A stretch of 11,257 nt of DNA, taken from a virus. Position numbers and translations under genes: made by a program. The stretch lies in UHGV virus genome UHGV-0341487. The stretch is one strand, 5' to 3'. Below, in pieces: positions 229 to 11,257 of the stretch (its first letter is position 1; each line of letters opens with the position of its first letter). The notes under the pieces are model-generated. The model was given only the letters and a program-made list of their open reading frames with translations, was not told the DNA's origin and made no database searches.

Positions 229-229
229 A

Positions 230-589
230 TCAATCTCCTTTGGTACCAATGTTTACAGCCTGGCAAGCCTCTTTGAGCACCCAGTCAACAGCGTCTTTCC
301 ATGCTCCGGTTTCGACTGGCGGATTCTCACGCTTTACCTGTTCATAGAAACGCACTGCTTTAATCAATCCTTCTGGTGTCAGTGGCACAGGCGGGACAGT
401 GAATAAGGCCTGAATCTCATAGCTCGGCCTGTCGTTGCAATCCTCTTTTGTCGGGACATATTTCCAGTCACCAACCCACTGCTTCCCCTGAAAGTCTGTA
501 ACGCCTTTTTTCACGTAGCGATATCGCCATGCCACTGGTTTTGCCTGCCCTGCCTTTTCATGCCCTTCCTGATAATTAATCTCGCTCAT
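230..589 (-). CDS. Hypothetical phage protein (119 aa)
   Basis: ORF-track ORF; ATG at 589..587 overlaps stop of upstream small ORF (ATGA overlap). No recognisable motif. Confidence 0.55.
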   Translation of the reverse strand: MSEINYQEGHEKAGQAKPVAWRYRYVKKGVTDFQGKQWVGDWKYVPTKEDCNDRPSYEIQALFTVPPVPLTPEGLIKAVRFYEQVKRENPPVETGAWKDAVDWVLKEACQAVNIGTKGD

Positions 590-762
590 TCATCGCCCCA
601 CTCATCACAATATGCTTCGACCGGTGTTTTCCCTGCTTCATAATCATCACGCCATGCTTCAGCATCAGCGGCACTTCCACCGCGTAACTCTGCATAATCC
701 ATTAACAGTTCATGCCATTCTTCAAAACTGGCGTTATATTTAGTTGAACCAGAATCAGCCAT
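586..762 (-). CDS. Small acidic protein (58 aa), not in ORF track
   Basis: Found by manual translation: ATG at 762..760 preceded by GAGGAA, reads MADSGSTKYNASFEEWHELLMDYAELRGGSAADAEAWRDDYEAGKTPVEAYCDEWGDE, stop TGA at 588..586. Start overlaps stop of upstream gene (ATGGCTGA) and stop overlaps next start (ATGA), fitting the coupled chain. About 16 acidic versus 4-5 basic residues. Confidence 0.45.
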   Translation of the reverse strand: MADSGSTKYNASFEEWHELLMDYAELRGGSAADAEAWRDDYEAGKTPVEAYCDEWGDE

Positions 763-937
763 TTTGTTCTTCCTCTTCGTCTTTTATTTCGTGATATGAG
801 TAATTGCAGTAGTTAAAGAAAATATCTTTTGCTTCGTCATGTATTTCATCAGGCGTCGCATCATCATCCACTTCGATTTCATCCTCGAAATCTCCACCGG
901 CTATTCCCGTTTCAATAATTATTTTAAACTTTCGCAT
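755..937 (-). CDS. Small hyper-acidic protein (60 aa)
   Basis: ORF-track ORF, ATG at 937. About 20 Asp/Glu in 60 residues including DDD and EEEE runs. Upstream SD GGAGG is separated from the ATG by a GC hairpin (see findings). Confidence 0.5.
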   Translation of the reverse strand: MRKFKIIIETGIAGGDFEDEIEVDDDATPDEIHDEAKDIFFNYCNYSYHEIKDEEEEQNG

Positions 938-1030
938 TTAACTACCGCCCTTTCGGGCGGCCTCCTGATGTTCTGAAGGTGCAGAAATCCCTCCGGTTAA
1001 GGATTAAATTTTTAACAGAGCTAAATTTAA

Positions 1031-1387
1031 TTATTCAGTTCTGGATTTTGTCGCCCTGCGTATCCGCGCTTTCGCGTTACGCTCAATCTGAATTAACTTT
1101 TCTATATTTTTCCGCCTTTCCTGTTCCTCCTGGCGCAATAGCCTTACATCATCTGCCAGTCTGGTTTCTCTTTTCGCCACAGAGAGCATCCAGTCAAACG
1201 GCTCCACAACTGCACCGCAGATTTTACAGCGGACCTGACGCTCTTTTTCGTCAACCCGGACAGAAGCGTGATGGCAGTATGGTCTTTCCGATGGCTCATA
1301 AAGAAAATTAACCTGATTACGTGGGTCATCCTCTTTTACCGGAAATAAAACGATATTGCTTAACTCATCTTCTGGATTTATTTCCAC
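1031..1387 (-). CDS. Hypothetical protein with CxHH...CxxC putative zinc-binding motif and basic coiled-coil-like C-terminus (118 aa from GTG)
   Basis: ORF-track ORF 1031..1468 trimmed to GTG at 1387..1385, which sits 6 nt after AAGGAG (1399..1394) and 1 nt after the upstream stop TGA (1391..1389). The track's ATG at 1468 would overlap the upstream gene by 80 nt. Motif PYCHHASVRVDEKERQVRCKICG. Confidence 0.5.
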   Translation of the reverse strand: MEINPEDELSNIVLFPVKEDDPRNQVNFLYEPSERPYCHHASVRVDEKERQVRCKICGAVVEPFDWMLSVAKRETRLADDVRLLRQEEQERRKNIEKLIQIERNAKARIRRATKSRTE

Positions 1388-1388
1388 G

Positions 1389-1925
1389 TCACTCTCCTTT
1401 GATGCGAATGCCAGCGACGCGTGGCACATTAACTTCCACAATGCGCACAGTTGGTTTGTACATCTCAATTGCTGTCAGCCAGTCAGCTCCTGTCATGCGC
1501 TTTTCTGCATCGCCATTAGTCCACTGAACCGGTACACCAATAGCCTTCATCGCGATTTCTATTTCCCCGGCAATGGCGCTTTTTCCGCAACCAGTAAAAC
1601 CAGATACAACGACAAGAACTTCGCCCTTGGCCGGTTTTATTTCCCGCGCTTCCAGCTCTTTAACGCGCTCCTCGAGTTCGTAGACTCTGCATTGTTCTTT
1701 ATCATCAATCAGATATAACCCAAGACATTCGCTTTCTACCCAGCCACCGAAATCATGATCGTAACGCTCACATGAAAACTCACCGTCGCTGTCCTTTGTT
1801 GGGATGGTGTAGCTATCTAATGGGCCACCATACGTCGGCACATTTCCCAATGTCGGATGCTCAATCCACATGAAAAATGCACGTCCGGTTATAGGGCAAA
1901 TATCTGGTCGCCATTGGTTACTCAC
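1389..1925 (-). CDS. Walker A (P-loop) motif protein, about 178 aa
   Basis: ORF-track ORF 1389..1952 trimmed to GTG at 1925..1923, 6 nt after AGGAGG (1937..1932); GTGAGTAA overlaps the upstream stop. Strand-loop-helix VLVVVSGFTGCGKSAIAGEIEIAM contains GxxGxGKS, encoded at 1578..1601. Confidence 0.6.
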   Translation of the reverse strand: MSNQWRPDICPITGRAFFMWIEHPTLGNVPTYGGPLDSYTIPTKDSDGEFSCERYDHDFGGWVESECLGLYLIDDKEQCRVYELEERVKELEAREIKPAKGEVLVVVSGFTGCGKSAIAGEIEIAMKAIGVPVQWTNGDAEKRMTGADWLTAIEMYKPTVRIVEVNVPRVAGIRIKGE

Positions 1926-2217
1926 TGTTTGCCTCCTGAAAAATAACTGCATGCCCCAGCTTCTCCGCCAGCGCCAGTTCTGCCTTAGCGCCTGCTGACC
2001 GCTGCCAGCCTTTCAGCATGTAAATCGCATCAACACAACGAATCATTGCCATGCAAATATCCATGTAGTGTGGCTGTGTCAGCCCGTCCGGAAGTACTGC
2101 CGGGTTTAAGACTGTATGCCCTTCCCGTTTCAGTTCCTCTTCCGCATCGTGGAACGCCTCACGGTTGAAATTTTTATACCCGGTCATCGGACCAGCGATA
2201 TAAATCCTCACCCTCAC
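1918..2217 (-). CDS. DUF4406-like / nucleoside 2-deoxyribosyltransferase-fold protein (99 aa)
   Basis: N-terminal RIYIAGPMTG followed by NP and a GW..S.GA..E pattern, characteristic of the DUF4406 / nucleoside deoxyribosyltransferase-like fold (recalled, not searched). GTG start at 2217 overlaps upstream stop (GTGA); AGGAGG 7 nt upstream. Confidence 0.6.
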   Translation of the reverse strand: MRVRIYIAGPMTGYKNFNREAFHDAEEELKREGHTVLNPAVLPDGLTQPHYMDICMAMIRCVDAIYMLKGWQRSAGAKAELALAEKLGHAVIFQEANSE

Positions 2218-2636
2218 GCCATCACCTCCTGAAAATTACCCTGATAGAACGCCAGCACACGCTGCATAGCTTCGCTCTTCCGGCACTCGCGACAGATTAT
2301 GTTCTGACGCCTGTCGTAGCGGCGTATTTCTCCGTCTGGTAATGACCAGATAAGGTCCGGATCAACCGCAGATGGTTTCTTCAGCTTTGCCCTTGAGAGC
2401 TTTTTACGGGTATTTTGCCAATCCTTACGCGCCTGTTCAGACGGGAATAACCCGTAACCAGAGTTGTATACATCGCCACTGGCAACCAGCTCTCTGGCCA
2501 GAACGCTCATCAGATATCTTGTTGCCCCAGTTTTAGCTTCCAGTTGTCGTAACGTCTCGCGTCCACTCTGGCGTACGAGTTCAAGAACCTGCCCTTTAAT
2601 TTTTTCCCGCTCTTCTTGTGTAAAAACTTTTGCCAC
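2214..2636 (-). CDS. Hypothetical protein (140 aa), possibly winged-helix-like N-terminus
   Basis: ORF-track ORF; GTG start at 2636 preceded by AGGAGG (2646..2641). Sits where lambdoid phages usually carry a helicase loader, but is too short and shows no ATPase motif. Confidence 0.5.
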   Translation of the reverse strand: MAKVFTQEEREKIKGQVLELVRQSGRETLRQLEAKTGATRYLMSVLARELVASGDVYNSGYGLFPSEQARKDWQNTRKKLSRAKLKKPSAVDPDLIWSLPDGEIRRYDRRQNIICRECRKSEAMQRVLAFYQGNFQEVMA

Positions 2637-2676
2637 AAGCCCTCCTGAAAATTACCTCATGACCAGAAATTAACAC

Positions 2677-3747
2677 TTACCCCCTGAAGCCCGGCGGAAT
2701 TTCGTTATCCGGTTCAGAAATATGATTCACACAACGCTGGTTGTTCGTGCTGCTTACCGGGAGCAACCAGGGGTTCTCAAAATTCCGGTCCGGTCCAAAA
2801 AACGTCGTCGCTCGCTGAACAAATTCCGTTCCCGTTTTCCCGGTAGCCGCCAAGTATCTTGCGTAACGCCTCACGCCATCCAGCATGGCCTCTGGTGGCA
2901 CCCCCTCGCGTAATCTGGCCTTCCAGGCACTGAAAGCGGATTTCTTCGGGTTTGCTCCGGCACGCAACGGGTACTCCCGCCAGACCTGTTCGAACACATC
3001 CGGATAATCCACTCGTCCCACAGACTGCCCGGTGCTTTCCGGGACTACCCGATCGGCTTCCCGCTGAATGGCGGAATCGGCTTCAGGCTGCTGCAGTTGG
3101 TGTGATTGCTCCGGCCTTGCGGTCATCACCTGCTGCACAGCGCCCGAATCGGCTTTCAGCGCATACGCTGAATCGGCTTCCGGTGTCGTGCCTGCTGGCT
3201 GACCAGGATTGACGGTCTGAACATCCCCTGCCTGGTTCGTGGCGTTTTTTACGCCATGGACCATAGTGTTTTGATCTTCTTGATCTGTATCTTTATCTGT
3301 ATCTTTATCTGTCGTGACTCGTCGTGACATGTGCGTGACATTTCGTGACGCGCCGTGACAATCGCCATTTTGTTCCCGCTTTCTTTCCCTCTCTCGCTGC
3401 GCCCTCTTGCGCTCTGCAGGAGATTTTGCGGTTTGCGAAATATTGCCGTTGTCCTCTTTAAGCACCTGGCGTTTTTCCCATCCAGTGATTAAATCACCAT
3501 CAAGTACCCGCCCCTGCATCGTCTGCAAAATTGAATCAATTACCTCTTCTGTCACGTCGAGCGCACTTGCCAAATCTTCTGTCGTGACATCAATGTGACC
3601 TCGCGTGACATTTCGTGACGCGCTCACCAGGAGGTGGATATACACTGCCATCACTGTTGCAATTGGCTGCCCTGACACCCTGGCAATTGTTCGCCACTTA
3701 GGGTCATTTGGCATGTCATGCCATAATCTGAGCCAGGCGTTAGCCAT
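2677..3747 (-). CDS. Phage replication initiator (lambda O-like functional analogue) with origin iterons inside its coding sequence
   Basis: ORF-track ORF 2677..3753; start moved to ATG at 3747..3745, 5 nt after GAGGTG. Position directly downstream of the cro-like/YdaT-like genes. Two clusters of CGTGAC iterons lie inside the gene and are mirrored in the protein as RNVTRGHIDVTT and RNVTHMSRRVTTDKDTDKDTD. Confidence 0.7.
   Translation of the reverse strand: MANAWLRLWHDMPNDPKWRTIARVSGQPIATVMAVYIHLLVSASRNVTRGHIDVTTEDLASALDVTEEVIDSILQTMQGRVLDGDLITGWEKRQVLKEDNGNISQTAKSPAERKRAQRERERKREQNGDCHGASRNVTHMSRRVTTDKDTDKDTDQEDQNTMVHGVKNATNQAGDVQTVNPGQPAGTTPEADSAYALKADSGAVQQVMTARPEQSHQLQQPEADSAIQREADRVVPESTGQSVGRVDYPDVFEQVWREYPLRAGANPKKSAFSAWKARLREGVPPEAMLDGVRRYARYLAATGKTGTEFVQRATTFFGPDRNFENPWLLPVSSTNNQRCVNHISEPDNEIPPGFRG
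3283..3359. repeat. Origin-like repeat block: two tandem 12-bp ATCTGTATCTTT units plus a third diverged unit (3307-3318) that overlaps the first of five CGTGAC iterons at about 10-bp spacing
   Basis: Seen in sequence: atctgtatcttt at 3283-3294 and 3295-3306; cgtgac at 3313, 3323, 3334, 3344, 3354. Helical-turn spacing puts the sites on one face of the DNA. Confidence 0.65.
3583..3623. repeat. Second iteron cluster (CGTGAC/TGTGAC, four copies at 10-11 bp spacing), with a 20-bp exact copy of an iteron pair from the first cluster
   Basis: cgtgacatttcgtgacgcgc occurs at 3334-3353 and again at 3604-3623; additional copies at 3583 and 3594; an inverted gtcacg at 3551. Confidence 0.6.
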
Positions 3748-3818
3748 ACTCACCTCTTTTGATACCGAATCTTTTTACTCACAAATTGCCGGAAGTGATC
3801 CGGTATGAATATTGCGAG

Positions 3819-4244
3819 TCAATGCACAGCCACAATATTTCCTGCAGGGCCACCACGATTCATCTGGTTGAAACCAGCGATCGCCACTGCGACAAAATCA
3901 TCAGCGTCTCTCACCAGTCGTTCCCGCGTCTCCACTAGTTCCCGAAAATAGGCTGAGCTATGACTGCGCATTCGGGCCACCAGCAGAGGTGGCATTGCTT
4001 TTTCGATAGCTGGTAACAACGCCTGAATTTTTTTAACCGCATCAGGGGTGTCTTTCTCCACCCAGCGGAAAATTTTCTGAGTATTGCGAGCTAGGGCTTC
4101 CGGATGGCTGTCGTCATACAGTTCCGGGAACGTCATTCCCAGCTCGAAATACGCTTTGGTAATTTTCGCAGCCGGTACTTTTTCGCCGTCCGGATGCGCC
4201 CAGGCATTCATCGCCATGCGGATATGTTCATGTTTGATTTTCAT
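3819..4244 (-). CDS. YdaT-like prophage protein (CII-position gene), 141 aa
   Basis: Begins MKIKHEHI and sits immediately downstream of the cro-like gene with an ATGA start/stop overlap, as ydaT follows ydaS in Rac. Family assignment is from memory of the YdaT N-terminus and gene position, not a search. Confidence 0.55.
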   Translation of the reverse strand: MKIKHEHIRMAMNAWAHPDGEKVPAAKITKAYFELGMTFPELYDDSHPEALARNTQKIFRWVEKDTPDAVKKIQALLPAIEKAMPPLLVARMRSHSSAYFRELVETRERLVRDADDFVAVAIAGFNQMNRGGPAGNIVAVH

Positions 4245-4468
4245 GAATCACTCTTCCTTTTGTCCCGGGTGGTATCCTTCTTTTTGTAAAGCTCTGGGTT
4301 CAAAGATAATTTTCCCTTGGAGTATGCAGCAGCTTCCGCAGCTCTCCCTTTCGGAACTATTTCACCGGGGCGCTTACGCCACATGTAAATAGCTTCGCGG
4401 GTTATCCCATAAAAATCAGCGACCCTCTGAACAGAGCCAAAAAACTGAACAAGTTCATCAACTCGCAT
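4241..4468 (-). CDS. Cro/DicC-like small HTH regulator (75 aa)
   Basis: Divergent from the repressor gene; FGSxxxxAxxxGIxxxxxYxWxxxxxxVPxGRA pattern resembles DicC/Cro-type proteins; basic C-terminal tail; SD GGAGAG 5 nt upstream of ATG at 4468. Confidence 0.7.
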   Translation of the reverse strand: MRVDELVQFFGSVQRVADFYGITREAIYMWRKRPGEIVPKGRAAEAAAYSKGKLSLNPELYKKKDTTRDKRKSDS

Positions 4469-4564
4469 TTTACTCTCCTAAAATCTAAGTATTTTTAGAT
4501 TACAGGATAATTTTTTTTAGGTCAATGCAATCTAAAATAATTTATATTCAACTCGCGGGAGAAA
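4469..4564. promoter_or_regulatory. Divergent immunity control region (OR-like) with two 20-bp operators
   Basis: Operator 1 at 4482-4501, aatctaa-gtattt-ttagatt, with perfect 7-bp inverted arms. Operator 2 at 4529-4548, aatctaa-aataat-ttatatt, with one arm mismatch. On the minus strand a TTGACC -35 and a -10 inside operator 1 could drive cro; exact promoter hexamers are inferred. Confidence 0.6.
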
Positions 4565-5212
4565 ATGATGGAAAGCCTTGGCATCAGGCTTAAGAAACTC
4601 AGAAAAGATAAGGGACTCACCCAAGTAGAACTGGGTAAGCTTTCAGGCGTGACTGGGGTTACTATAGGGTACTGGGAGAAAGATCTAAACGAACCCGGCA
4701 GCAAAGCTCTAAGTAAGTTAGCCCAGGCATTAGGAACTACTGAGTCCTATCTCCTGTATGGAGTATCGTCTCCTGAACTATCTTTTGTGCAGAGCAATCC
4801 AGGCACCAAGATCCCCTACTTTTCGTGGGGTGACGCGATTTCTTTCCTAATCTTAGAAGGAGAGAAAACAATGGGAAATGTCGATAGGATCACCACATTC
4901 TTTGATGTAGTGGAAGGTGATTTTGCCGTTTCAATGCCTGATGACACTATGCATAACCCCTCAGGGTCACCAAGTATCCCGGTTGGTGCCACTGTGATCC
5001 TAAGACCAGGAGAGAGTTATAAAAATGGCAGTATCGTCGCTGTAATAGTTCCAGATCCACTTACAAATGAACCGTCTATGACTATAAAAAAATTAGTTAT
5101 TGATGGAAAACTTGTGTATTTAAGCCCTCTCAATCCGCGCTATCAATCATCCTTGCTTACGCCAGAGTGTAAAATTGTTGCCGTAGCAAAAGGTGTGCAG
5201 TTCAACCTATAA
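4565..5212 (+). CDS. cI-type prophage repressor (HTH_XRE N-domain plus S24 LexA-like autopeptidase C-domain)
   Basis: N-terminal LTQVELGKLSGVTGVTIGYWE helix-turn-helix; C-terminal AVSMPDD (Ser nucleophile context) and TIKKLV (Lys) typical of the LexA/cI self-cleaving domain. The ATG at 4568 has better SD spacing than 4565, so the true start may be 4568. Confidence 0.85.
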   Translation: MMESLGIRLKKLRKDKGLTQVELGKLSGVTGVTIGYWEKDLNEPGSKALSKLAQALGTTESYLLYGVSSPELSFVQSNPGTKIPYFSWGDAISFLILEGEKTMGNVDRITTFFDVVEGDFAVSMPDDTMHNPSGSPSIPVGATVILRPGESYKNGSIVAVIVPDPLTNEPSMTIKKLVIDGKLVYLSPLNPRYQSSLLTPECKIVAVAKGVQFNL

Positions 5213-5233
5213 CCCTGCTATGTCCTTGAACTT

Positions 5234-5260
5234 AAGGTCGGTTATGCCGACCTTTTTTTT
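5234..5260 (+). terminator. Intrinsic terminator downstream of the repressor gene
   Basis: aaggtcgg-ttatg-ccgacctt stem-loop (8-bp stem) followed immediately by an 8-nt T run. Confidence 0.7.
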
Positions 5261-5310
5261 AAATTAATTTAGATTCCCCTTGACTATAAAACTAAATACT
5301 TTTAGATTTA
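5261..5310 (+). promoter_or_regulatory. pL-like early-left promoter with overlapping operator (OL)
   Basis: TTGACT at 5280-5285, 17-bp spacer, TAGATT at 5303-5308. Operator aaactaa-atactt-ttagatt at 5289-5308 is near-identical to OR operator 1; an extra TTAGATT half-site at 5269-5275. Confidence 0.55.
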
Positions 5311-5489
5311 TTGCATACCAACCCACCCCGCCCCATAGAACGCCGGGCAATACTTCGAGTTACCAGGCAGTGGTCAGGGGTTAAGTAGCCAGCCCGAGGC
5401 GTAAGAACATGACGGCAGGGTTCAACTTTAATAACTATGCAGCAGGTTTTTGTTCCGCTACCCCGGCGTTAAGGGGAAATGAGGTCAAC

Positions 5490-5645
5490 ATGGATACTAT
5501 CGATCTTGGCAACAACGAATCTCTGGTGTACGGCGTGTTTCCCAACCAGGACGGCACATTCACCGCGATGACGTATACCAAAAGCAAAACGTTTAAAACC
5601 GAAAATGGTGCCCGTCGCTGGCTGGAAAGAAACTCAGGTGAGTGA
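5490..5645 (+). CDS. ydfA: YdfA-like small protein (51 aa)
   Basis: ORF-track ORF 5409..5645 trimmed to ATG at 5490, 5 nt after GAGGT; 51 aa equals the YdfA length and it is the first gene of a ydfABC-dicF-dicB-ydfD-ordered operon. Symbol assigned by synteny and size from memory. The upstream ATG at 5409 is an alternative start. Confidence 0.5.
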   Translation: MDTIDLGNNESLVYGVFPNQDGTFTAMTYTKSKTFKTENGARRWLERNSGE

Positions 5646-5646
5646 T

Positions 5647-5775
5647 ATGGATTTCGACACAATCATGAAAAAGGCTTACGAAGAATACTTCGAAGGCCTT
5701 ACCGAAGGCGAAGAAGCTCTCAGCTTCAGTGAGTTTAAACAGGCGCTTTCCAGCTCGGCAAAATCTAACGGCTGA
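5647..5775 (+). CDS. ydfB: YdfB-like small protein (42 aa), not in ORF track
   Basis: Manual translation MDFDTIMKKAYEEYFEGLTEGEEALSFSEFKQALSSSAKSNG; ATG 1 nt after the upstream stop with AGGTGAG SD; size and position match ydfB. Confidence 0.5.
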   Translation: MDFDTIMKKAYEEYFEGLTEGEEALSFSEFKQALSSSAKSNG

Positions 5776-5804
5776 TAAGCGAAGCAGCACCGCGAGGAAT
5801 CAGT

Positions 5805-6023
5805 ATGCAGAAACGAGAACCCGTCATCATCGCGCCAGACTATACCGATGATGAACTTTATGAGTGGATGCGCCAGAAAATTAATGCAGCGCAGGATCTG
5901 AAATGGGCCAATGAAGCCAGGGCTAAGCAGGCTGAAAATCTGTCCGCTCTGGAGCAGGATATCACCAGGCTGGAAAAAGCAGCGGCATTAAGCATTGCCA
6001 GAATGATTACATACCAGCGTTAA
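5805..6023 (+). CDS. ydfC: YdfC-like protein (72 aa)
   Basis: ORF-track ORF with GAGGAA SD; 72 aa and position match ydfC of the dicB operon. Confidence 0.6.
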   Translation: MQKREPVIIAPDYTDDELYEWMRQKINAAQDLKWANEARAKQAENLSALEQDITRLEKAAALSIARMITYQR

Positions 6024-6363
6024 TAGCTAACCAACGAAGCTAAGGTTGGTAATTAAGGAGTTCTCCACGGGTGAGGTGGAGTGCGTGCGCCGGACACGGG
6101 TGAGCATCCGGCACTGACAGTTTACTGAAAGGATATTTCCATGAAAAGTCAGACCATAACGCGAAAGCGCACGGCGAGGTAGCTGGTTCATAGATAGCCT
6201 GTCGTTAAATTTTCGTCGACCGTGCGCTTCCGGTTGTGGCACTACACGAAATGGCGCGGCGGTAAGTATGGCGGGGTTATTCCTTCCCCGTTGAGGACAC
6301 CGGGTTGTCAGGTTGACCATACGCTTAAGTGACAACCCCGCTGCAACGCCCTCTGTTATCAAT

Positions 6364-6421
6364 TTTCTGGTGACGTTTGGCGGTATCAGTTTTACTCCGT
6401 GACTGCTCTGCCGCCCTTTTT
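6364..6421 (+). ncRNA. dicF: DicF small regulatory RNA (ftsZ-targeting antisense sRNA) with its own intrinsic terminator
   Basis: Sequence tttctggtgacgtttggcggtatcagttttactccgtgactgctctgccgcccttttt matches my recollection of E. coli DicF; ends in GC stem plus T run; located between ydfC and dicB exactly as in the Qin dicB operon. Confidence 0.8.
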
Positions 6422-6590
6422 AAAGTGAATTTTGTGATGCGGTGAATGCGGCTAAGCGCACGCGGAACAGTTAAAACCAAAAACAGTGTTATGGGTGGAT
6501 TCTCTGTATCCGGCGTTAATTGTTAACTGGTTAACGTCACCTGGAGGCACCAGGCACCGCATCACAAAACTCATTGTTGAGGGCGCGATA

Positions 6591-6779
6591 ATGAAAACGT
6601 TATTACCAAACGTTAATACGTCTGAAGGTTGTTTTGAAATTGGTGTCACTATCAGTAATCCTGTATTTACTGAAGATGCCATTAACAAAAGAAAACACGA
6701 ACGGGAGTTATTAAATAAAGTATGCATTGTTTCAATGCTGGCCCGTTTACGTTTGATGCCAAAAGGATGTGCACAATGA
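6591..6779 (+). CDS. dicB: DicB cell-division inhibitor (62 aa)
   Basis: C-terminal 62 aa of ORF-track ORF 6486..6779, MKTLLPNVNTSEGCFEIGVTISNPVFTEDAINKRKHERELLNKVCIVSMLARLRLMPKGCAQ, matches recalled DicB nearly residue for residue; GAGGG SD upstream of ATG 6591. Confidence 0.85.
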   Translation: MKTLLPNVNTSEGCFEIGVTISNPVFTEDAINKRKHERELLNKVCIVSMLARLRLMPKGCAQ

Positions 6780-6967
6780 ATCCAGTATTTGCACTTATTC
6801 TGACGGTTTTTCTTGTTTCCGGAGAGCCAGTTGATATTGCAGTCAGTGTTCACAGAACAATGCAGGAATGTATGGCAGCAGCAACCGAACAGAAAATTCC
6901 AGGCAACTGTTATCCGGTCGATAAAGTTATTCACCAGGATAATAACGAAATCCCGGCAGGTCTTTAA
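6776..6967 (+). CDS. ydfD: YdfD-like lysis/toxic protein (63 aa) with N-terminal hydrophobic segment
   Basis: Internal ATG of ORF-track ORF 6722..6967 overlaps the dicB stop (ATGA); MNPVFALILTVFLVSGEPVDIAVSVHRTMQECM matches recalled YdfD; same order as in Qin. Confidence 0.75.
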   Translation: MNPVFALILTVFLVSGEPVDIAVSVHRTMQECMAAATEQKIPGNCYPVDKVIHQDNNEIPAGL

Positions 6968-7060
6968 AACAGTTCCGTAATAAATATCCGGTTTCATTCT
7001 TATATGCCAGCAATGGCAGGGATTTGTTCATCCTTAAATCTGTCATGAGGTTAAAACAAA

Positions 7061-9532
7061 ATGAGTAAAGTCTTTATTTGCGCCGCTATTCCTGACGAAC
7101 TGGCAACAAGGGAAGAAGGCGCTGTGGCTGTAGCCACAGCCATTGAAGCTGGCGACGAACGCCGTGCTCGAGCAAAATTTCACTGGCAGTTCCTGGAACA
7201 TTATCCGGCTGCTCAGGACTGCGCTTATAAATTTATTGTCTGCGAGGATAAACCTGGCATACCCCGCCCTGCCCTCGATTCATGGGATGCTGAATATATG
7301 CAGGAAAACCGCTGGGATGAGGAGTCTGCTTCTTTTGTCCCGGTTGAGACTGAATCCGATCCGATGAACGTCACTTTTGACAAGCTGGCCCCTGAAGTAC
7401 AGAACGCTGTCATGGTTAAGTTCGACACATGTGAAAACATCACCGTTGATATGGTTATTAGCGCACAGGAATTGTTGCAGGAAGACATGGCAACATTCGA
7501 CGGACATATCGTTGAAGCGTTGATGAAAATGCCAGAAGTTAACGCCATGTATCCGGAGCTTAAGTTGCACGCCATTGGGTGGGTTAAGCATAAATGTATT
7601 CCTGGTGCTAAATGGCCCGAAATTCAGGCAGAGATGCGCATCTGGAAAAAACGTCGCGAAGGTGAACGCAAGGAAACCGGAAAATACACGTCTGTTGTTG
7701 ATCTCGCCCGCGCCAGAGCCAATCAACAGTACACTGAAAATTCAACAGGAAAAATCAGCCCGGTCATTGCTGCCATTCATCGCGAATACAAGCAGACATG
7801 GAAAACACTGGATGACGAACTGGCCTACGCTCTCTGGCCTGGTGATGTGGATGCCGGAAACATTGACGGCAGCATCCATCGCTGGGCAAAAAAAGAAGTT
7901 ATCGACAACGACCGCGAAGACTGGAAGCGTATCTCGGCATCAATGCGCAAACAGCCTGATGCCCTTCGCTACGACCGCCAAACTATTTTTGGCCTTGTCC
8001 GTGAGCGTCCGATCGACATTCACAAAGATCCCGTAGCACTGAACAAATATATCTGCGAATACCTGACGACAAAGGGCGTGTTTGAGAATGAAGAAACAGA
8101 CCTGGGCACTGTTGATGTTCTCCAGTCATCAGAAACACAAACTGATGCAGTGGAAACTGAGGTATCTGATATCCCAAAAAATGAAACCGCGCCGGAAGCT
8201 GAACCATCTGTAGAGCGTGAGGGGCCGTTCTATTTCCTCTTCGCAGATAAGGACGGAGAAAAATACGGTCGCGCAAACAAACTTTCTGGTCTGGATAAGG
8301 CACTGGCTGCTGGCGCCACTGAAATCACAAAAGAAGAATATTTTGCCCGAAAAAATGGCACATACACGGGCTTACCGCAAAATGTAGATACCGCTGAAGA
8401 TTCAGAACAACCAGAGCCGATAAAAGTTACCGCTGACGAAGTAAACAAAATTATGCAGGCAGCCAATATCAGCCAGCCTGACGCCGATAAGTTGCTTGCT
8501 GCATCACGTGGTGAATTTGTTGAAGGGATTAGTGACCCGAATGATCCGAAATGGGTTAAGGGGATCCAGACCCGCGATTCTGTGAACCAGAACCAGCATG
8601 AATCGGAACGGAACTACCAAAAAGCGGAACAAAACAGCACAAATGCGTTACAAAACGAGCCAGAAACGAAACAGCCTGAACCAGTGGCGCAACAGGAAGT
8701 GGAAAAAGTCTGCACCGCCTGCGGTCAGACCGGCGGCGGCAACTGCCCTGATTGTGGCGCGGTGATGGGCGACGCAACATACCAAGAAACATTCGATGAA
8801 GAGTATCAGGTTGAAGTTCAGGAAGATGATCCGGAGGAAATGGAAGGCGCTGAACATCCACACAAGGAGAACACTGGCGGCAATCAGCATCACAATAGCG
8901 ATAATGAAACTGGCGAGACGGCAGATCACCCAATTAAGGTGAACGGTCATCACGAAATCACATCCACCAGCAGGACGTGTGACCATCTAATGATCGACCT
9001 TGAAACCATGGGAAAAAATCCTGATGCCCCGATCATCTCAATAGGTGCAATATTTTTCGATCCGCAAACCGGAGATATGGGACCGGAATTTAGTAAGACT
9101 ATCGATCTGGAAACTGCTGGCGGAGTCATTGATCGGGACACCATTAAATGGTGGCTTAAGCAATCACGCGAAGCGCAATCTGCCATTATGACCGATGAAA
9201 TCCCGTTAGATGATGCACTGTTACAATTGCGGGAATTTATCGACGAAAACTCCGGTGAATTTTTTGTTCAGGTCTGGGGAAATGGAGCCAACTTCGACAA
9301 CACGATTTTGCGCCGTTCATACGAACGGCAGGGGATCCCCTGCCCGTGGCGTTACTACAACGATCGCGATGTACGCACAATCGTTGAGCTGGGGAAAGCC
9401 ATAGACTTCGATGCCAGAACGGCTATTCCATTCGAAGGTGAGCGCCATAATGCACTTGATGACGCTCGTTACCAGGCAAAATACGTTTCAGCTATCTGGC
9501 AAAAACTGATCCCGAGTCAGGCTGATTTTTAA
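7061..9532 (+). CDS. Large multidomain phage protein (823 aa): unrecognised N-terminal domain, acidic/Gln-rich linker with CxxC-x7-CxxC zinc ribbon, C-terminal DEDDh-type 3'-5' exonuclease domain
   Basis: Long ORF with GAGG SD. C-terminal about 180 aa (nt 8987-9529) carry MIDLETMG (Exo I, D-x-E), GNGANFDNT (Exo II) and HNALDDARYQAKY (Exo III, His plus Asp). Zinc ribbon CTACGQTGGGNCPDCG near nt 8709-8762. Occupies the slot between dicB/ydfD and xis/int. Confidence 0.85.
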   Translation: MSKVFICAAIPDELATREEGAVAVATAIEAGDERRARAKFHWQFLEHYPAAQDCAYKFIVCEDKPGIPRPALDSWDAEYMQENRWDEESASFVPVETESDPMNVTFDKLAPEVQNAVMVKFDTCENITVDMVISAQELLQEDMATFDGHIVEALMKMPEVNAMYPELKLHAIGWVKHKCIPGAKWPEIQAEMRIWKKRREGERKETGKYTSVVDLARARANQQYTENSTGKISPVIAAIHREYKQTWKTLDDELAYALWPGDVDAGNIDGSIHRWAKKEVIDNDREDWKRISASMRKQPDALRYDRQTIFGLVRERPIDIHKDPVALNKYICEYLTTKGVFENEETDLGTVDVLQSSETQTDAVETEVSDIPKNETAPEAEPSVEREGPFYFLFADKDGEKYGRANKLSGLDKALAAGATEITKEEYFARKNGTYTGLPQNVDTAEDSEQPEPIKVTADEVNKIMQAANISQPDADKLLAASRGEFVEGISDPNDPKWVKGIQTRDSVNQNQHESERNYQKAEQNSTNALQNEPETKQPEPVAQQEVEKVCTACGQTGGGNCPDCGAVMGDATYQETFDEEYQVEVQEDDPEEMEGAEHPHKENTGGNQHHNSDNETGETADHPIKVNGHHEITSTSRTCDHLMIDLETMGKNPDAPIISIGAIFFDPQTGDMGPEFSKTIDLETAGGVIDRDTIKWWLKQSREAQSAIMTDEIPLDDALLQLREFIDENSGEFFVQVWGNGANFDNTILRRSYERQGIPCPWRYYNDRDVRTIVELGKAIDFDARTAIPFEGERHNALDDARYQAKYVSAIWQKLIPSQADF

Positions 9533-9590
9533 TGTTCAACCCTAATTGCCGCTAACCGTATATAGTTAGCGGCGGTTATGAGATATAGCT

Positions 9591-9794
9591 ATGAGCAGCT
9601 TATTTTTAACCGAAGATGAATTGCTAATATTAACGGGCTGCAAATATGCAAGCCACCAGCGAAAATGGTTAATGGAAAACGGGCTTCCGTTCTATACCAA
9701 TCGTAGTGGCAAACCGATTGTCAGCCGGGATCTATTTACCTGCAATAAAACTTTACCACCACGCGAGGTAGAGCCGAATTTTGGTGCGATCTGA
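9591..9794 (+). CDS. xis: Excisionase-like protein (DUF4224-type small DNA-binding protein)
   Basis: 67-aa ORF immediately upstream of int; its stop overlaps the int start (ATGA at 9792-9796); LTEDELLILTGCKYASHQRKWL resembles the small proteins found upstream of lambdoid integrases (from memory). Confidence 0.7.
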   Translation: MSSLFLTEDELLILTGCKYASHQRKWLMENGLPFYTNRSGKPIVSRDLFTCNKTLPPREVEPNFGAI

Positions 9795-10819
9795 TGGGAA
9801 GACGAAGGAAAAATCCTGAACACGAAAAATTACCTCCAAATGTATACCCAAATAAATATAGTTATGTATGGAAACCAACATCCAGAGAATCTGTCACACT
9901 AACCGCCATCAAGGATGGTTTAGCTGCTTTATGGAAAAAGTATGAGGAAACTGTAAATAATCGCGATCGTGCAATGACATTCGGTCGCTTGTGGGAAAAA
10001 TTCCTCGCCAGCGCCTATTACAGTGACCTTAGTCCAAGAACACAAAAAGATTATCTGCAACATCAAAAAAAGTTGCTTGCCGTATTCGGTAAGGTACCAG
10101 CGGATTCCATAAAACCAGAACACATCCGTCGATACATGGACAAAAGAGGGGAGCAGAGTAAAACGCAAGCCAACCATGAAAAAAGCAGTATGTCCCGTGT
10201 TTACAGTTGGGGGTATGAGCGAGGGTACGTGAAGGCTAACCCATGTGCAGGTGTAAGTAAATTCAAGGCCAAAAACCGCGAACGATATGTAACCGACAAA
10301 GAATACCAGGCAGTATTAAGCGTTGCACCTCTTCCTGTTTTTATCGCAATGGAAATTGCCTATCTGTGTGCAGCGAGGGTTTCCGATGTGTTATCGCTGA
10401 AATGGGAACAGATTGGAAACGACGGGATATTCATCCAGCAAGGGAAAACCGGAAAAAAACAGATAAAAGCATGGAGTCCACGATTACAGGCAGCGATCGA
10501 AAAAGCAAAACAGTTGCCAAAATCTGCCTATGTGATCAGCAATCAATACGGCAACCGATATATGTACAAAGGCTTTAACGAAATGTGGGTAGATGCAAGA
10601 AATCGTGCTGGAAAAATTTCAGGTATTTTAACCGACTTCACCTTTCATGATCTGAAGGCGAAAGGAATTTCAGACTATGAAGGAAGCAGCCGGGATAAGC
10701 AACTTTTCTCTGGTCACAAAACCGAAGGGCAAGTGCTAATCTATGACAGGAAGGTTAAAGTTTCACCAACACTTGATGTCCCGTTACCTGAAAATATTCC
10801 AAGAAAATATTCCAAGTAA
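9794..10819 (+). CDS. int: Tyrosine site-specific integrase, lambda Int family
   Basis: N-terminal MGRRRKNPEHEKLPPNVY parallels lambda Int MGRRRSHERRDLPPNLY; catalytic-region residues are alignable (AARVSDV Arg, QQGKTG Lys, FHDLK, LFSGH, LIYDRK Tyr). Adjacent to a tRNA gene. Confidence 0.9.
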   Translation: MGRRRKNPEHEKLPPNVYPNKYSYVWKPTSRESVTLTAIKDGLAALWKKYEETVNNRDRAMTFGRLWEKFLASAYYSDLSPRTQKDYLQHQKKLLAVFGKVPADSIKPEHIRRYMDKRGEQSKTQANHEKSSMSRVYSWGYERGYVKANPCAGVSKFKAKNRERYVTDKEYQAVLSVAPLPVFIAMEIAYLCAARVSDVLSLKWEQIGNDGIFIQQGKTGKKQIKAWSPRLQAAIEKAKQLPKSAYVISNQYGNRYMYKGFNEMWVDARNRAGKISGILTDFTFHDLKAKGISDYEGSSRDKQLFSGHKTEGQVLIYDRKVKVSPTLDVPLPENIPRKYSK

Positions 10820-10828
10820 TTCCAAGTG
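10791..10828. repeat. Tandem direct repeats (AAAATATTCCAAG x2 plus partial ATTCCAAG) spanning the int stop codon; candidate recombination arm-type or accessory-protein sites
   Basis: 13-mer at 10791-10803 and 10804-10816, partial copy 10819-10826; lies between the int C-terminus and the tRNA junction. Confidence 0.5.
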
Positions 10829-10871
10829 TGATTTTTGTCACTGACTTAATGATGTGTAAGTGATTGAATTT

Positions 10872-10961
10872 TGGCGGAGAGAGGGGGATTTGAACCCCCG
10901 GTGGAGTTGCCCCCACTCCGGTTTTCGAGACCGGTCCGTTCAGCCGCTCCGGCATCTCTCC
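10872..10961 (-). tRNA. serU: tRNA-Ser (anticodon CGA), class II tRNA with long variable arm and encoded CCA
   Basis: Reverse complement reads GGAGAGATGCCGGAGCGGCTGAACGGACCGGTCTCGAAAACCGGAGTGGGGGCAACTCCACCGGGGGTTCAAATCCCCCTCTCTCCGCCA: 7-bp acceptor stem GGAGAGA/TCTCTCC, anticodon loop CUCGAAA, TpsiC arm GGGGGTTCAAATCCCCC. Confidence 0.93.
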
Positions 10962-11054
10962 GTTCAGATGGTTGCCATGATGCCAGGAAATTTGGCATTT
11001 TAACAGTCCCTGTCCGTGCAATTTTGTTCAAGTGACGAGTTTGCGAGCAAAGCG

Positions 11055-11257
11055 ATGATAAAGTGGCCCTGGAAAACGAATGAAGCTGGCCGGGATATGG
11101 CGCTGCCATGGGATGACGCGCTGACGATCCCTGTTCTGGCTAATCTTAAGCCGGATGAACAAGCGAAACTGGTTCAGCTGGCGGATCGTTTTTTACAGCA
11201 AAAACGCCTGGTTCCACTGCGGGGTTTCGAACTCGATCCCCTGAAAAACGCGCGCAT
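11055..11257 (+). CDS. mtfA: MtfA-like protein (Mlc titration factor A / DgsA anti-repressor), N-terminal part; continues beyond window end
   Basis: ATG at 11055 opens a frame reading [67 protein letters not shown], which matches the recalled MtfA N-terminus (MIKWPWK...[16 protein letters not shown]); no stop before the window end. Confidence 0.85.

What the first reader, a model, noticed from the sequence alone, without database searches (positions are those of the whole stretch)
7061..9532. 823-aa fusion of an unknown N-domain, a zinc ribbon and a DEDDh 3'-5' exonuclease in the slot usually annotated exodeoxyribonuclease VIII
The C-terminal 180 aa carry the three DnaQ-like DEDDh motifs (DLE, NFD, H-x3-DD-x3-Y). 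This is a different fold from the PD-(D/E)XK nuclease of genuine RecE, so any exonuclease VIII label on homologues would be a misnomer. The N-terminal 330 aa have no motif I recognise, and the 300-aa acidic/Gln-rich linker contains a CxxC-x7-CxxC ribbon. No Bet/RecT-type annealase gene is seen in the window, so this protein may act alone as a nucleic-acid-degrading effector (host takeover, anti-defence or superinfection exclusion) rather than as half of a recombination pair.
Basis: partly seen in the sequence, partly recalled or inferred. Interest (0 to 1): 0.6.

Follow-up and report, generated by a model that had tools for sequence, protein, structure and literature searches.

The report
RecE-like prophage protein with swapped nuclease
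This very common E. coli prophage gene encodes a large protein built on the same non-catalytic scaffold as the recombination nuclease RecE, but its cutting domain has been exchanged for an unrelated exonuclease of opposite polarity (like phage T4 DexA) and it has no annealing-protein partner; its biological role has never been tested.

Summary
ORF 7061-9532 (+) encodes 823 aa. Its C-terminus (aa 641-823) is a DEDDh 3'-5' exonuclease: Pfam PF16473 at E 1.5e-67, catalytic residues D646/E648/D746/H796/D801, nearest solved relative T4 DexA. A CxxC-x7-CxxC ribbon lies at aa 551-565. No annealase gene is in the window.

- aa 262-627, the supposed linker, is truly homologous to Rac RecE residues 278-592 and stops just before RecE's PD-(D/E)XK nuclease.
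- aa 1-256 are 100% identical to the K-12 Qin pseudogene ydfE (new Pfam families YdfE_N/YdfE_C).
- The family is a mosaic. Two N-modules, a shared core, an optional Zn linker, and a DEDDh, PD-(D/E)XK or no C-terminal nuclease occur in all combinations.
- PD-(D/E)XK forms were followed by recT in 5 of 5 loci. DEDDh fusions were followed by xis/int in all 7 or more distinct loci, never by recT.

The gene is the distal part of the dicBF/pL operon. It occurs in 3537 of 5426 complete E. coli genomes and in plaque-forming phages (HannyBb, Tritos).

Best reading: an annealase-independent 3'-end-trimming DNA exonuclease made early in lytic growth. The role is inferred, not shown. Moderately interesting; a new variant of a known kind.

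The parts
7061..9532 (+). Complete CDS, 823 aa: RecE-family scaffold fused to a DEDDh exonuclease ('YdfE-type 3'-5' exonuclease')
   Evidence: ORF list and translation. Full-length match to PHROG 2082 'exonuclease'. 100% identical copies are annotated 'exonuclease' or '3'-5' exonuclease' in E. coli genomes.
7047..7050 (+). Shine-Dalgarno GAGG, 10 nt before the ATG
   Evidence: Sequence read.
7061..7765 (+). N module, aa 1-235 (YdfE type): an alpha/beta subdomain (aa 1-96) and a helical subdomain (aa 101-214); function unknown
   Evidence: - aa 1-256 are 100% identical to K-12 Qin pseudogene ydfE.
- Pfam PF27430 YdfE_N and PF27432 YdfE_C are recorded on identical homologues.
- AF2 gives pLDDT about 85-95.
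- Other family members carry the RecE-type N module (PF06630) in its place.
7766..8110 (+). Conserved helical core, aa 236-350, shared by all family members including RecE (RecE residues about 278-345)
   Evidence: The phmmer module map shows it in nearly all long relatives. It aligns to RecE by BLASTP. AF2 pLDDT is about 95 for aa 245-344. dN/dS is 0.17.
8213..8365 (+). Small, confidently folded beta-beta-alpha-beta-alpha element, aa 385-435 (GPFYFLFADKDGEKYG...), flanked by disordered acidic segments
   Evidence: AF2 full-length model gives pLDDT 91-96 for aa 390-430 and below 50 for 345-384 and 439-473. The 'mid' module recurs in YdfE-type relatives. It has no Pfam match.
8471..8950 (+). 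RecE-homologous acidic linker, aa 471-630, containing the zinc ribbon
   Evidence: 78% DNA identity to Rac recE over window 8485-8927. This is the best-conserved part of the BLASTP alignment to RecE (about residues 450-592). It is mostly disordered in the AF2 model.
8711..8755 (+). Zinc ribbon C551-x2-C554-x7-C562-x2-C565
   Evidence: Motif positions. The four cysteines are conserved in RecE (CNACGQTGGDNCPDCG). AF2 pLDDT is about 70.
8981..9529 (+). DEDDh 3'-5' exonuclease domain, aa 641-823; catalytic residues D646, E648, D746, H796, D801
   Evidence: - PF16473 E 1.5e-67.
- A profile of 22 homologues hits T4 DexA (8KEL) at E 1.5e-16.
- Foldseek of the model against the PDB: DexA first (E 3e-9), then RNase T, Orn and REXO2.
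- Catalytic residues conserved across homologues.
- dN/dS 0.09.
5280..5308 (+). pL-like promoter candidate (TTGACT-17-TAGATT) of the operon that ends with this gene, xis and int
   Evidence: Consensus scan. It is the only + strand promoter match between the cI terminator (5234-5254) and 9932. The layout equals the K-12 dicBF operon.
6365..6416 (+). DicF sRNA, upstream in the same operon
   Evidence: Rfam RF00039, 76.7 bits, E 6e-16.
6591..6967 (+). dicB (6591-6779) and ydfD/DUF1482 (6776-6967), the genes immediately upstream
   Evidence: Pfam DicB E 5e-40 and DUF1482 E 4e-25. RefSeq annotation of the identical locus.
9591..10819 (+). Downstream genes: DUF4224 excisionase-like gene (9591-9794) and tyrosine integrase (9794-10819). 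They occupy the place where recT lies in Rac.
   Evidence: Pfam DUF4224 E 2e-15 and Phage_integrase E 2e-11. Rac layout for comparison.
10872..10961 (-). tRNA-Ser(CGA), the prophage attachment site
   Evidence: ARAGORN and Rfam. The identical ST131 locus lies next to mtfA.

Best explanation
What it is: the last 'cargo' gene of the early-left (pL/dicBF) operon of a lambdoid prophage integrated at tRNA-Ser. It encodes a modular RecE-family protein with these parts:
- a YdfE-type N module;
- a helical core shared with RecE;
- disordered acidic linkers carrying a small folded element and a zinc ribbon;
- a C-terminal DexA-like DEDDh exonuclease.

How it arose: in this lineage the cassette 'PD-(D/E)XK 5'-3' nuclease plus recT' of classical RecE/RecT is replaced by the DEDDh domain alone.

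How it most likely works: when the repressor is lifted, the protein is made together with DicB and YdfD. It removes nucleotides from 3' ends of DNA by two-metal catalysis through D646/E648/D746/D801, with H796 as general base. The RecE-like scaffold positions or oligomerises the enzyme on its substrate. It works without a phage annealase, so any recombination it assists must use host functions (RecBCD/RecA), for example by trimming or blunting 3' tails.

Shown: the architecture, the homologies, the intact catalytic residues, the operon position, the absence of an annealase and the purifying selection.
Inferred: DNA rather than RNA as substrate, the scaffold's targeting role and the biological purpose.
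For: Catalytic domain:
- PF16473 E 1.5e-67.
- DEDDh residues present and conserved.
- The nearest solved relative by sequence profile and by fold is T4 DexA, a DNA exonuclease. The profile search returned only DexA at E<=0.01, and no Rv2179c entry.

Scaffold:
- aa 262-627 are homologous to RecE 278-592 and stop before RecE's nuclease.
- aa 1-256 equal K-12 YdfE.

Module shuffling:
- All four combinations of N module and nuclease exist, plus forms with no nuclease.
- Locus L012 is 89% identical in DNA over aa 1-498, then switches to PD-(D/E)XK plus RecT.
- Locus L008 keeps the flanks and the DEDDh domain at 95-97% identity but carries a RecE-type N module.

Cassette coupling:
- RecT follows the PD-(D/E)XK forms in 5 of 5 loci.
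- Distinct DEDDh fusion loci have xis/int downstream and no RecT or Erf.

Expression context:
- There is no promoter or strong terminator match between ydfD and the gene. The order is the same as K-12 dicA-ydfABC-dicF-dicB-ydfD-ydfE.

Functionality:
- dN/dS is 0.09-0.17 in the folded modules.
- The gene is intact in the plaque-forming phages HannyBb, PhiR42_1 and Tritos.
- HannyBb has no annotated annealase anywhere in its genome.

Literature:
- PMC12315714 lists a 'Tritos' class of lambdoid phages with a nuclease but no annealase, SSB or anti-RecBCD, and with many Chi sites. It also notes DnaQ-type nucleases near int.
- Stand-alone homologues 56-58% identical to the C-domain sit inside Erf-SSB-exo-Abc2 recombination modules in mEp235 and g341c. 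This links the nuclease family to DNA recombination.
Against: - No biochemical or genetic data exist for this protein or for YdfE.
- The Pfam family is named after an exoribonuclease, so an RNA substrate is not excluded.
- 3'-5' exonucleases usually inhibit rather than promote recombination, as PMC12315714 notes.
- HannyBb has only 5 and 2 Chi sites on its two strands, about the E. coli average density, so a tie to Chi/RecBCD is not visible there.
- The context survey covers about a dozen loci, not the thousands available.
Confidence: 0.55

Rival explanations
1. Anti-phage (superinfection exclusion) nuclease of the 'HREX' type. The DexA-like domain would selectively degrade incoming phage DNA that carries modified cytosines, protecting the lysogen.
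For: - PMC12153337 reports that an E. coli DexA homologue (EcD) degrades 5hmC DNA in vitro and protects against T4 when expressed from a plasmid.
- The gene is prophage-borne and is retained in about 65% of complete E. coli genomes, often in several copies. That is compatible with a benefit to the host.
- The catalytic residues are shared with DexA.
Against: - EcD is a different homologue. Its cloning primers show that it starts MIDTET and ends TIPETY, and it is not among my hits.
- By that paper's own criteria this domain is not EcD-like. The residue aligned to DexA D90 is D718 (alanine in EcD), and the residue aligned to DexA W152 is Y766.
- The gene is distal in the repressor-controlled pL/dicBF operon with no promoter match of its own, so it is expected to be silent in a stable lysogen.
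- No PADLOC defence model matches beyond a generic DEDDh hit at E 1.7e-5.
Confidence: 0.2
2. 3'-5' exoribonuclease acting on RNA, for example host or phage transcript turnover, or trimming of RNAs from its own operon such as DicF, in line with the Rv2179c name of the Pfam family.
For: - The Pfam family PF16473 is named for the M. tuberculosis exoribonuclease Rv2179c.
- Structural neighbours after DexA are RNase T, oligoribonuclease and REXO2.
- The gene shares an operon with the processed sRNA DicF.
Against: - The closest characterised relative, by sequence profile and by fold, is the DNA exonuclease DexA. No Rv2179c structure was returned by the same profile at E<=0.01.
- The scaffold is shared with a DNA enzyme, RecE.
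- Close stand-alone homologues lie inside DNA recombination modules.
Confidence: 0.12
3. Decaying or functionless mosaic left by illegitimate recombination in defective prophages, with no selected activity.
For: - Many copies are disrupted: K-12 ydfE is cut by IS2E, and the Shigella and one E. albertii copy are frameshifted.
- The integrase next to it is annotated as frameshifted in the identical ST131 locus.
Against: - The 2.5-kb reading frame is intact.
- dN/dS is 0.09-0.17 in the folded modules.
- The catalytic residues are invariant or nearly so across homologues.
- The gene is intact at 99% identity in plaque-forming phages.
Confidence: 0.04

Closest known systems
RecE (exonuclease VIII) of the Rac prophage, partner of RecT
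   Same: - Large size and the same place in the early-left operon near xis/int.
- Homologous helical core, acidic linker and CxxC-x7-CxxC ribbon: aa 262-627 against RecE 278-592, E 8e-62.
- In RecE the N-terminal part is likewise of unknown function and dispensable for basic recombineering (PMC11611040).
   Different: - No PD-(D/E)XK nuclease domain.
- No PF06630 N-terminal domain.
- No recT downstream.
- Fails the NCBIfam equivalog cut-off (282.6 against 1269 bits).
- The predicted polarity is 3'-5' rather than 5'-3'.
T4 DexA (exodeoxyribonuclease A; PDB 8KEL/8KEN) and the Pfam family PF16473 (Rv2179c-like)
   Same: The C-domain has the same fold and the same DEDDh catalytic residues. The profile E-value to DexA is 1.5e-16 and the Foldseek E-value is 3e-9.
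   Different: - DexA is a stand-alone 227-aa protein with extra loops.
- Here the domain is the C-terminus of an 823-aa scaffold protein.
- DexA W152 corresponds to Y766 here.
- About 21-24% identity in the Foldseek structural alignment and about 30% in tblastn matches to T4-like phage DexA genes.
Stand-alone lambdoid-phage 3'-5' exonucleases (mEp235 gp30, g341c/epsilon34 gp29, ST64B Sb30)
   Same: They are 56-60% identical to aa 641-823 and lie in the early-left operon. ST64B, 1720a-02 and PSTCR8lys carry them next to xis/int, as here.
   Different: They are only about 180 aa with no scaffold. In mEp235 and g341c they are embedded in an Erf-SSB-exo-Abc2 recombination module, whereas this gene has no recombination neighbours.
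K-12 YdfE (Qin prophage pseudogene b1577); Pfam YdfE_N / YdfE_C
   Same: aa 1-256 are 100% identical, and the neighbours are the same: dicB-ydfD upstream and int downstream.
   Different: The K-12 copy is cut by IS2E after codon 256. It lacks the core, the linker and the nuclease.
'Tritos' class and 'RecE-2' proteins of Zheng et al. 2025 (PMC12315714)
   Same: Phage Tritos carries this gene at 99.1% identity. The paper lists it as a lambdoid type with a nuclease only and no annealase. The paper also mentions RecE relatives that lack a nuclease domain, which correspond to my nuclease-less class, for example P0126.
   Different: The text I could read does not describe the module architecture, the DEDDh identity of the Tritos nuclease or the coupling to recT. 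Its supplementary tables were not available.

Membership tests
DEDDh (DnaQ-like) 3'-5' exonucleases, subfamily PF16473 (Rv2179c/DexA-like) | Exo I motif D-x-E | tested here: met
   D646 and E648 lie in MIDLET. The D is invariant and the E is present in 21 of 22 homologues. They align to DexA D7/E9.
DEDDh (DnaQ-like) 3'-5' exonucleases, subfamily PF16473 (Rv2179c/DexA-like) | Exo II aspartate | tested here: met
   D746 lies in NFD and aligns to DexA D119. It is invariant across homologues.
DEDDh (DnaQ-like) 3'-5' exonucleases, subfamily PF16473 (Rv2179c/DexA-like) | Exo III motif H-x4-D (the 'h' subtype) | tested here: met
   H796 and D801 lie in HNALDD. Both are invariant. The spacing matches DexA H186/D191 as quoted in PMC12153337.
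DEDDh (DnaQ-like) 3'-5' exonucleases, subfamily PF16473 (Rv2179c/DexA-like) | Profile score above the curated threshold over the full domain | tested here: met
   227.1 bits against a cut-off of 27, covering model positions 2-177 of 177.
DEDDh (DnaQ-like) 3'-5' exonucleases, subfamily PF16473 (Rv2179c/DexA-like) | RNase H-like fold superposable on solved members | tested here: met
   The AF2 model has pLDDT about 90 in aa 640-820. Foldseek top hits are DexA (E 3e-9, probability 1.0), then RNase T, Orn and REXO2. This rests on a predicted model, not a solved structure.
DEDDh (DnaQ-like) 3'-5' exonucleases, subfamily PF16473 (Rv2179c/DexA-like) | Metal-dependent 3'-5' exonuclease activity, and the substrate (DNA or RNA) | not testable with these tools
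   Requires an enzyme assay.
RecE / exodeoxyribonuclease VIII (NCBIfam NF007259 equivalog) | Whole-protein score at or above the equivalog cut-off | tested here: not met
   282.6 bits against a cut-off of 1269. Only model positions 271-600 of 877 are matched.
RecE / exodeoxyribonuclease VIII (NCBIfam NF007259 equivalog) | C-terminal PD-(D/E)XK nuclease domain (RecE 564-866; PF12684-like) | tested here: not met
   No Pfam hit. BLASTP to RecE stops at residue 592. phmmer and tblastn with RecE 600-866 find nothing in this gene.
RecE / exodeoxyribonuclease VIII (NCBIfam NF007259 equivalog) | N-terminal Exonuc_VIII domain (PF06630) | tested here: not met
   No PF06630 hit at E<=1. The N module is the alternative YdfE type.
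RecE / exodeoxyribonuclease VIII (NCBIfam NF007259 equivalog) | Homologous middle region (core, acidic linker and zinc ribbon) | tested here: met
   aa 262-627 align to RecE 278-592 at E 8e-62. DNA identity is 78% over window 8485-8927.
RecE / exodeoxyribonuclease VIII (NCBIfam NF007259 equivalog) | Adjacent recT annealase partner | tested here: not met
   The downstream genes are DUF4224 and the integrase. tblastn finds no RecT or Erf in the window.
HREX / EcD-type anti-phage exonuclease (PMC12153337) | Loss of the DexA tetramer residue D90 (alanine in EcD) | tested here: not met
   In the HMMER alignment DexA D90 pairs with D718 of LDDALL. This depends on the alignment in a loop-rich region.
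HREX / EcD-type anti-phage exonuclease (PMC12153337) | Conserved tryptophan equivalent to DexA W152 for 5hmC recognition | tested here: inconclusive
   The aligned residue is Y766, which is aromatic but not tryptophan. The column varies across the family, and many homologues have W. DexA D169 lies outside the aligned region.
HREX / EcD-type anti-phage exonuclease (PMC12153337) | Protection against T4 and selective cleavage of 5hmC DNA | not testable with these tools
   Requires phage challenge and nuclease assays.
YdfE family (Pfam PF27430 YdfE_N, PF27432 YdfE_C) | Sequence identity to the founding K-12 protein and Pfam membership | tested here: met
   100% identity over aa 1-256 to b1577. PF27430 and PF27432 are precomputed on homologues 100% identical over aa 1-345, and the family names appear. 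These two models are absent from the local Pfam copy, so their exact boundaries were not seen.

The most novel reading that the evidence does not exclude
The RecE-family N-terminal scaffold may be a general delivery platform onto which phages plug nucleases of opposite polarity. On this reading the DEDDh version defines an annealase-independent pathway. It would either condition 3' ends so that the host RecBCD-Chi-RecA machinery, rather than a phage annealase, makes the concatemers needed for packaging, or it would act as a modification-sensing exclusion nuclease against other phages. Either outcome would give a function to the long-mysterious N-terminal 560 residues of RecE and to one of the commonest uncharacterised prophage genes in E. 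coli.
Probability: 0.25. Interest if true: 0.65.

Novelty: new variant of a known kind. Interest (0 to 1): 0.42.

Why it matters
- The gene is in about two thirds of complete E. coli genomes, often in several copies, and in active temperate phages. Yet it has no assigned role, and databases label it inconsistently as exonuclease VIII, exonuclease or 3'-5' exoribonuclease.
- It shares RecE's non-catalytic scaffold but carries a nuclease of different fold and opposite polarity, without RecT. Comparing the two gives a natural experiment on what the unexplained N-terminal part of RecE does. That part improves linear-linear recombineering.
- It also bears on how lambdoid phages that lack an annealase deal with DNA ends.
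- It shows that the K-12 'gene' ydfE is the stump of this nuclease.
- Practically, the 'exodeoxyribonuclease VIII' annotations on these proteins should be corrected.

Tried and rejected
Searches that led nowhere:
- The search for related loci with the N-region alignment failed because no stretch was conserved enough. The single-protein scan of genome contigs returned only close relatives.
- I tried to identify the published EcD protein from its cloning primers. There was no match in the fetched loci. One chance match in IMG/VR was unrelated, and EcD was not among the top C-domain homologues. I conclude only that it is a different homologue.
- The supplementary tables of PMC12315714 are not held.
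- Two literature searches were wasted: one on loose term matching and one on 'RecE' matching 'receptor'. The search for ydfE found no functional study.

Ideas considered and dropped:
- Chi enrichment as support for RecBCD dependence. The window has three Chi sites, all on the minus strand. But phage HannyBb has only 5 and 2 on its two strands, about the E. coli average, so I do not use it.
- PADLOC gave only a generic DEDDh hit.
- A whole-protein RecE identity is rejected.
- A chance ORF or decayed gene is rejected.
Full report
**1. The observation**

The window holds one long ORF at 7061-9532 on the + strand, 823 codons. It is preceded by GAGG ten bases before the ATG.

- MIDLET at aa 644-649 (D646, E648);
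- NFD at 744-746 (D746);
- HNALDD at 796-801 (H796, D801), followed by Y804;
- the ribbon C551-x2-C554-x7-C562-x2-C565.

Pfam places aa 642-813 in PF16473, the Rv2179c-like 3'-5' exoribonuclease domain, at E 1.5e-67 over the whole model. The five catalytic positions are conserved in an alignment of 22 homologues of 56-88% identity.

**2. Where the window comes from**

The window is 100% identical over 1-11075 to E. coli ST131-type chromosomes. It covers the immunity and early region of a lambdoid prophage inserted at tRNA-Ser(CGA), which lies at 10872-10961 on the minus strand, next to mtfA.

On the + strand the order is:
- a cI-like repressor (4565-5212), followed by a strong hairpin terminator (5234-5254);
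- a pL-like promoter match (5280-5308);
- ydfA, ydfB and ydfC;
- the sRNA DicF (6365-6416; Rfam 76.7 bits);
- dicB, then ydfD (DUF1482);
- the 823-aa gene;
- a DUF4224 excisionase-like gene, then the integrase.

No other + strand promoter match and no convincing terminator lie between 5308 and the gene. This is the layout of the K-12 Qin dicBF operon. The minus strand carries the early-right genes: cro, a YdaT/cII-like gene, a replication initiator, a Ren-like gene and others. None is an annealase.

**3. Anatomy of the protein**

- **The C-domain is a DEDDh exonuclease closest to T4 DexA.**
  - phmmer against PDB sequences finds only DexA (8KEL/8KEN), at E 1.6e-6 for the whole protein and 6e-8 for the C-domain alone.
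  - A profile of 22 homologues raises this to 1.5e-16, and no other PDB sequence reaches E 0.01.
  - The full-length AlphaFold model has pLDDT about 90 in aa 640-820.
  - Foldseek against the PDB returns DexA first (E 3e-9), then RNase T, oligoribonuclease, REXO2, ERI3 and Cap18, all DEDDh enzymes.
- **The 'linker' is homologous to RecE.**
  - The NCBIfam RecE equivalog matches only aa 246-623, to model positions 271-600 of 877. The score is 282.6 bits against a cut-off of 1269.
  - BLASTP against Rac RecE aligns aa 262-627 with RecE 278-592 at E 8e-62. Conservation is much the highest from about aa 470 to 627, which includes the four cysteines. The alignment ends just before the RecE nuclease domain, residues 564-866 as given in PMC11611040.
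  - At DNA level the shared segment is window 8485-8927 at 78% identity.
- **The N-terminus is YdfE.**
  - aa 1-256 are 100% identical to the K-12 pseudogene ydfE (b1577), which IS2E truncates.
  - Homologues identical over aa 1-345 carry the new Pfam families PF27430 (YdfE_N) and PF27432 (YdfE_C). These families are absent from the local Pfam copy.
- **Predicted structure.**
  - An AlphaFold model of aa 1-350, built from a 23-sequence alignment, has mean pLDDT 83.6. It shows an alpha/beta subdomain (aa 1-96), a helical subdomain (aa 101-214) and a helical core (aa 245-340).
  - The full-length model adds a small confident element at aa 385-435 and a moderately confident ribbon at aa 551-568.
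  - It marks aa 345-384, 439-473, 499-547 and 570-636 as disordered.

**4. The family is a mosaic**

An exhaustive HMMER search with aa 1-345 found only 168 cluster representatives. I mapped modules on the long ones with phmmer. The result:
- There are two alternative N modules: the YdfE type and the RecE type. The RecE type is PF06630, which models RecE's first 200 residues and not its nuclease.
- A shared core corresponds to aa 236-350.
- The 'mid' and zinc-ribbon segments are optional.
- The C-terminus is DEDDh, RecE-type PD-(D/E)XK (PF12684), or neither.

All four combinations of N module and nuclease occur.

The swaps are recent:
- Locus L012 is 89% identical in DNA from window 7003 to 8554 (aa 1-498). 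It then continues into a PD-(D/E)XK domain and a recT gene.
- Locus L008 matches the flanks and the DEDDh half at 95-97% identity but has a RecE-type N module.

Synonymous divergence from an E. albertii allele varies 20-fold between modules, as expected for a mosaic. dN/dS is 0.10 (N module), 0.17 (core), 0.35 and 0.49 (linkers) and 0.09 (DEDDh). The folded parts are therefore under purifying selection.

**5. Coupling to the annealase**

Every PD-(D/E)XK member whose context I could read is followed by an overlapping recT:
- Rac;
- L012;
- P0128;
- P0174;
- P0223.

Every DEDDh fusion is followed by an excisionase-like gene and the integrase, with no RecT or Erf in the flanks. These are the window and its near-identical copies, L007, L008, L009, P0133, P0226, P0232 and P0253.

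That is 5 of 5 against 0 of at least 7 distinct loci. My own hypergeometric calculation gives p of about 0.001. The sample is small and not fully independent.

A member with no nuclease (P0126) also lacks recT. The annealase therefore travels with the 5'-3' nuclease domain and not with the scaffold.

**6. Other contexts of the nuclease domain**

Stand-alone proteins of about 180 aa, 56-60% identical to the C-domain, are common in phages.
- In mEp235 and g341c they lie inside recombination modules with the order Erf, SSB, exonuclease, Abc2.
- In ST64B, 1720a-02 and PSTCR8lys they sit next to xis/int.
- In virulent phages (YuA, T4 relatives) they lie among early genes.

**7. Distribution**

- The gene is present at >=80% coverage in 3537 of 5426 complete E. 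coli genomes. The median is two matching places per genome and the maximum is ten.
- It is intact at 99% identity in phages HannyBb, PhiR42_1 and Tritos.
- HannyBb's full annotation shows no annealase.

**8. Literature**

- Zheng et al. 2025 (PMC12315714) list a 'Tritos' class of lambdoid phages with a nuclease but no annealase, SSB or anti-RecBCD. They also note DnaQ-type nucleases near int and 'RecE-2' proteins without a nuclease domain.
- Kang et al. 2025 (PMC12153337) solved DexA. They report that an E. coli homologue, EcD, degrades 5hmC DNA and protects against T4.
  - EcD's cloning primers show that it is a different homologue, starting MIDTET and ending TIPETY.
  - In this protein DexA D90 aligns with D718 (alanine in EcD) and DexA W152 aligns with Y766.
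- I found no functional study of YdfE.

**9. Interpretation**

What is shown:
- The protein is a RecE-family scaffold with an intact DexA-like DEDDh domain in place of the PD-(D/E)XK-plus-RecT cassette.
- The gene is the distal gene of the repressor-controlled early-left operon.
- It is selectively maintained.

What I infer, with moderate confidence:
- It trims 3' DNA ends during lytic development, independently of a phage annealase.
- The scaffold serves targeting or assembly.
- Any contribution to recombination goes through host functions.

Rivals:
- a lysogen-protecting exclusion nuclease of the EcD type;
- an RNA exonuclease;
- a functionless relic, which is the least likely.

**10. Verdict**

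Its interpretation is partly right. The 'exonuclease VIII' label is wrong for the catalytic domain but reflects real homology in the scaffold.

The domain families are known and curated, and the phage class has been noted. The module-swap architecture, the link to ydfE and the coupling between nuclease type and annealase are, as far as I could find, not described.

I rate it a new variant of a known kind, of moderate interest.

Noticed in passing
window 7061-7828; L004 6079-6999: The K-12 'gene' ydfE (b1577, Qin prophage) is the N-terminal 256-codon stump of this 823-aa exonuclease gene, cut by IS2E. The Pfam families YdfE_N and YdfE_C are therefore named after a truncated pseudogene product.
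   Followed up: yes
window 9794-10844: The integrase ORF in the window is 341 aa (9794-10819). RefSeq annotates the 100% identical ST131 locus as a frameshifted pseudogene that extends about 25 nt further. The prophage may therefore be unable to excise.
   Followed up: partly
window 9547-9575: A 9-bp inverted repeat (GCCGCTAAC...GTTAGCGGC) lies just after the stop codon, before the DUF4224 gene. It has no T run, so it is not a canonical terminator. It could be an RNA processing or protein-binding element.
   Followed up: no
window 3977, 8964, 9653 (minus strand); L027: All three Chi octamers in the window are on the minus strand, none on the plus strand, and one lies inside the exonuclease gene. 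Phage HannyBb has 5 and 2 Chi sites on its two strands, about the E. coli average density, so no clear enrichment is visible.
   Followed up: partly
window 8213-8365 (aa 385-435): A small, confidently predicted beta-beta-alpha-beta-alpha element (pLDDT 91-96) sits inside otherwise disordered acidic sequence. It has no Pfam match. It recurs in YdfE-type relatives, but no equivalent was found in Rac RecE.
   Followed up: partly
P0126, P0130, P0139, P0148 (L018-L020): A third class of family members (about 700-790 aa) has the YdfE N module and the core but no recognisable nuclease or any Pfam domain in the last 250-300 residues. They occupy the same slot, between a kilR-like gene and xis/int.
   Followed up: partly
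L008 (JAGZPX010000007.1): A contig binned as a Veillonella parvula MAG carries E. coli prophage DNA 95-97% identical to the window. This is probably a binning contaminant.
   Followed up: no
window 11076-11257: The last 180 bases or so of the window are not covered by the otherwise 100% identical ST131 matches (query coverage 1-11075). The right flank therefore differs from those genomes.
   Followed up: no
L021 4242-4934 and L021 5001-6695: In one relative a separate 230-aa gene with a RecE-type N domain (PF06630) lies immediately upstream of a 564-aa fusion of a RecE-type N module and a DEDDh domain. This suggests a duplication or a split of the N module.
   Followed up: no
window 1918-2214 (minus strand): The early-right operon carries a DUF4406 protein that matches the PHROG 'nucleoside 2-deoxyribosyltransferase' at E 4e-47, next to a Ren-like (DUF977) gene.
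   Followed up: no
PMC12153337 supplementary primers (EcD_F / EcD_R): The published defence protein EcD starts exactly at the Met of the Exo I motif (MIDTET). In this family that Met is internal in the fusion proteins, and most stand-alone forms have 4-5 residues before it. EcD may therefore be an N-terminally short or truncated ORF call.
   Followed up: partly
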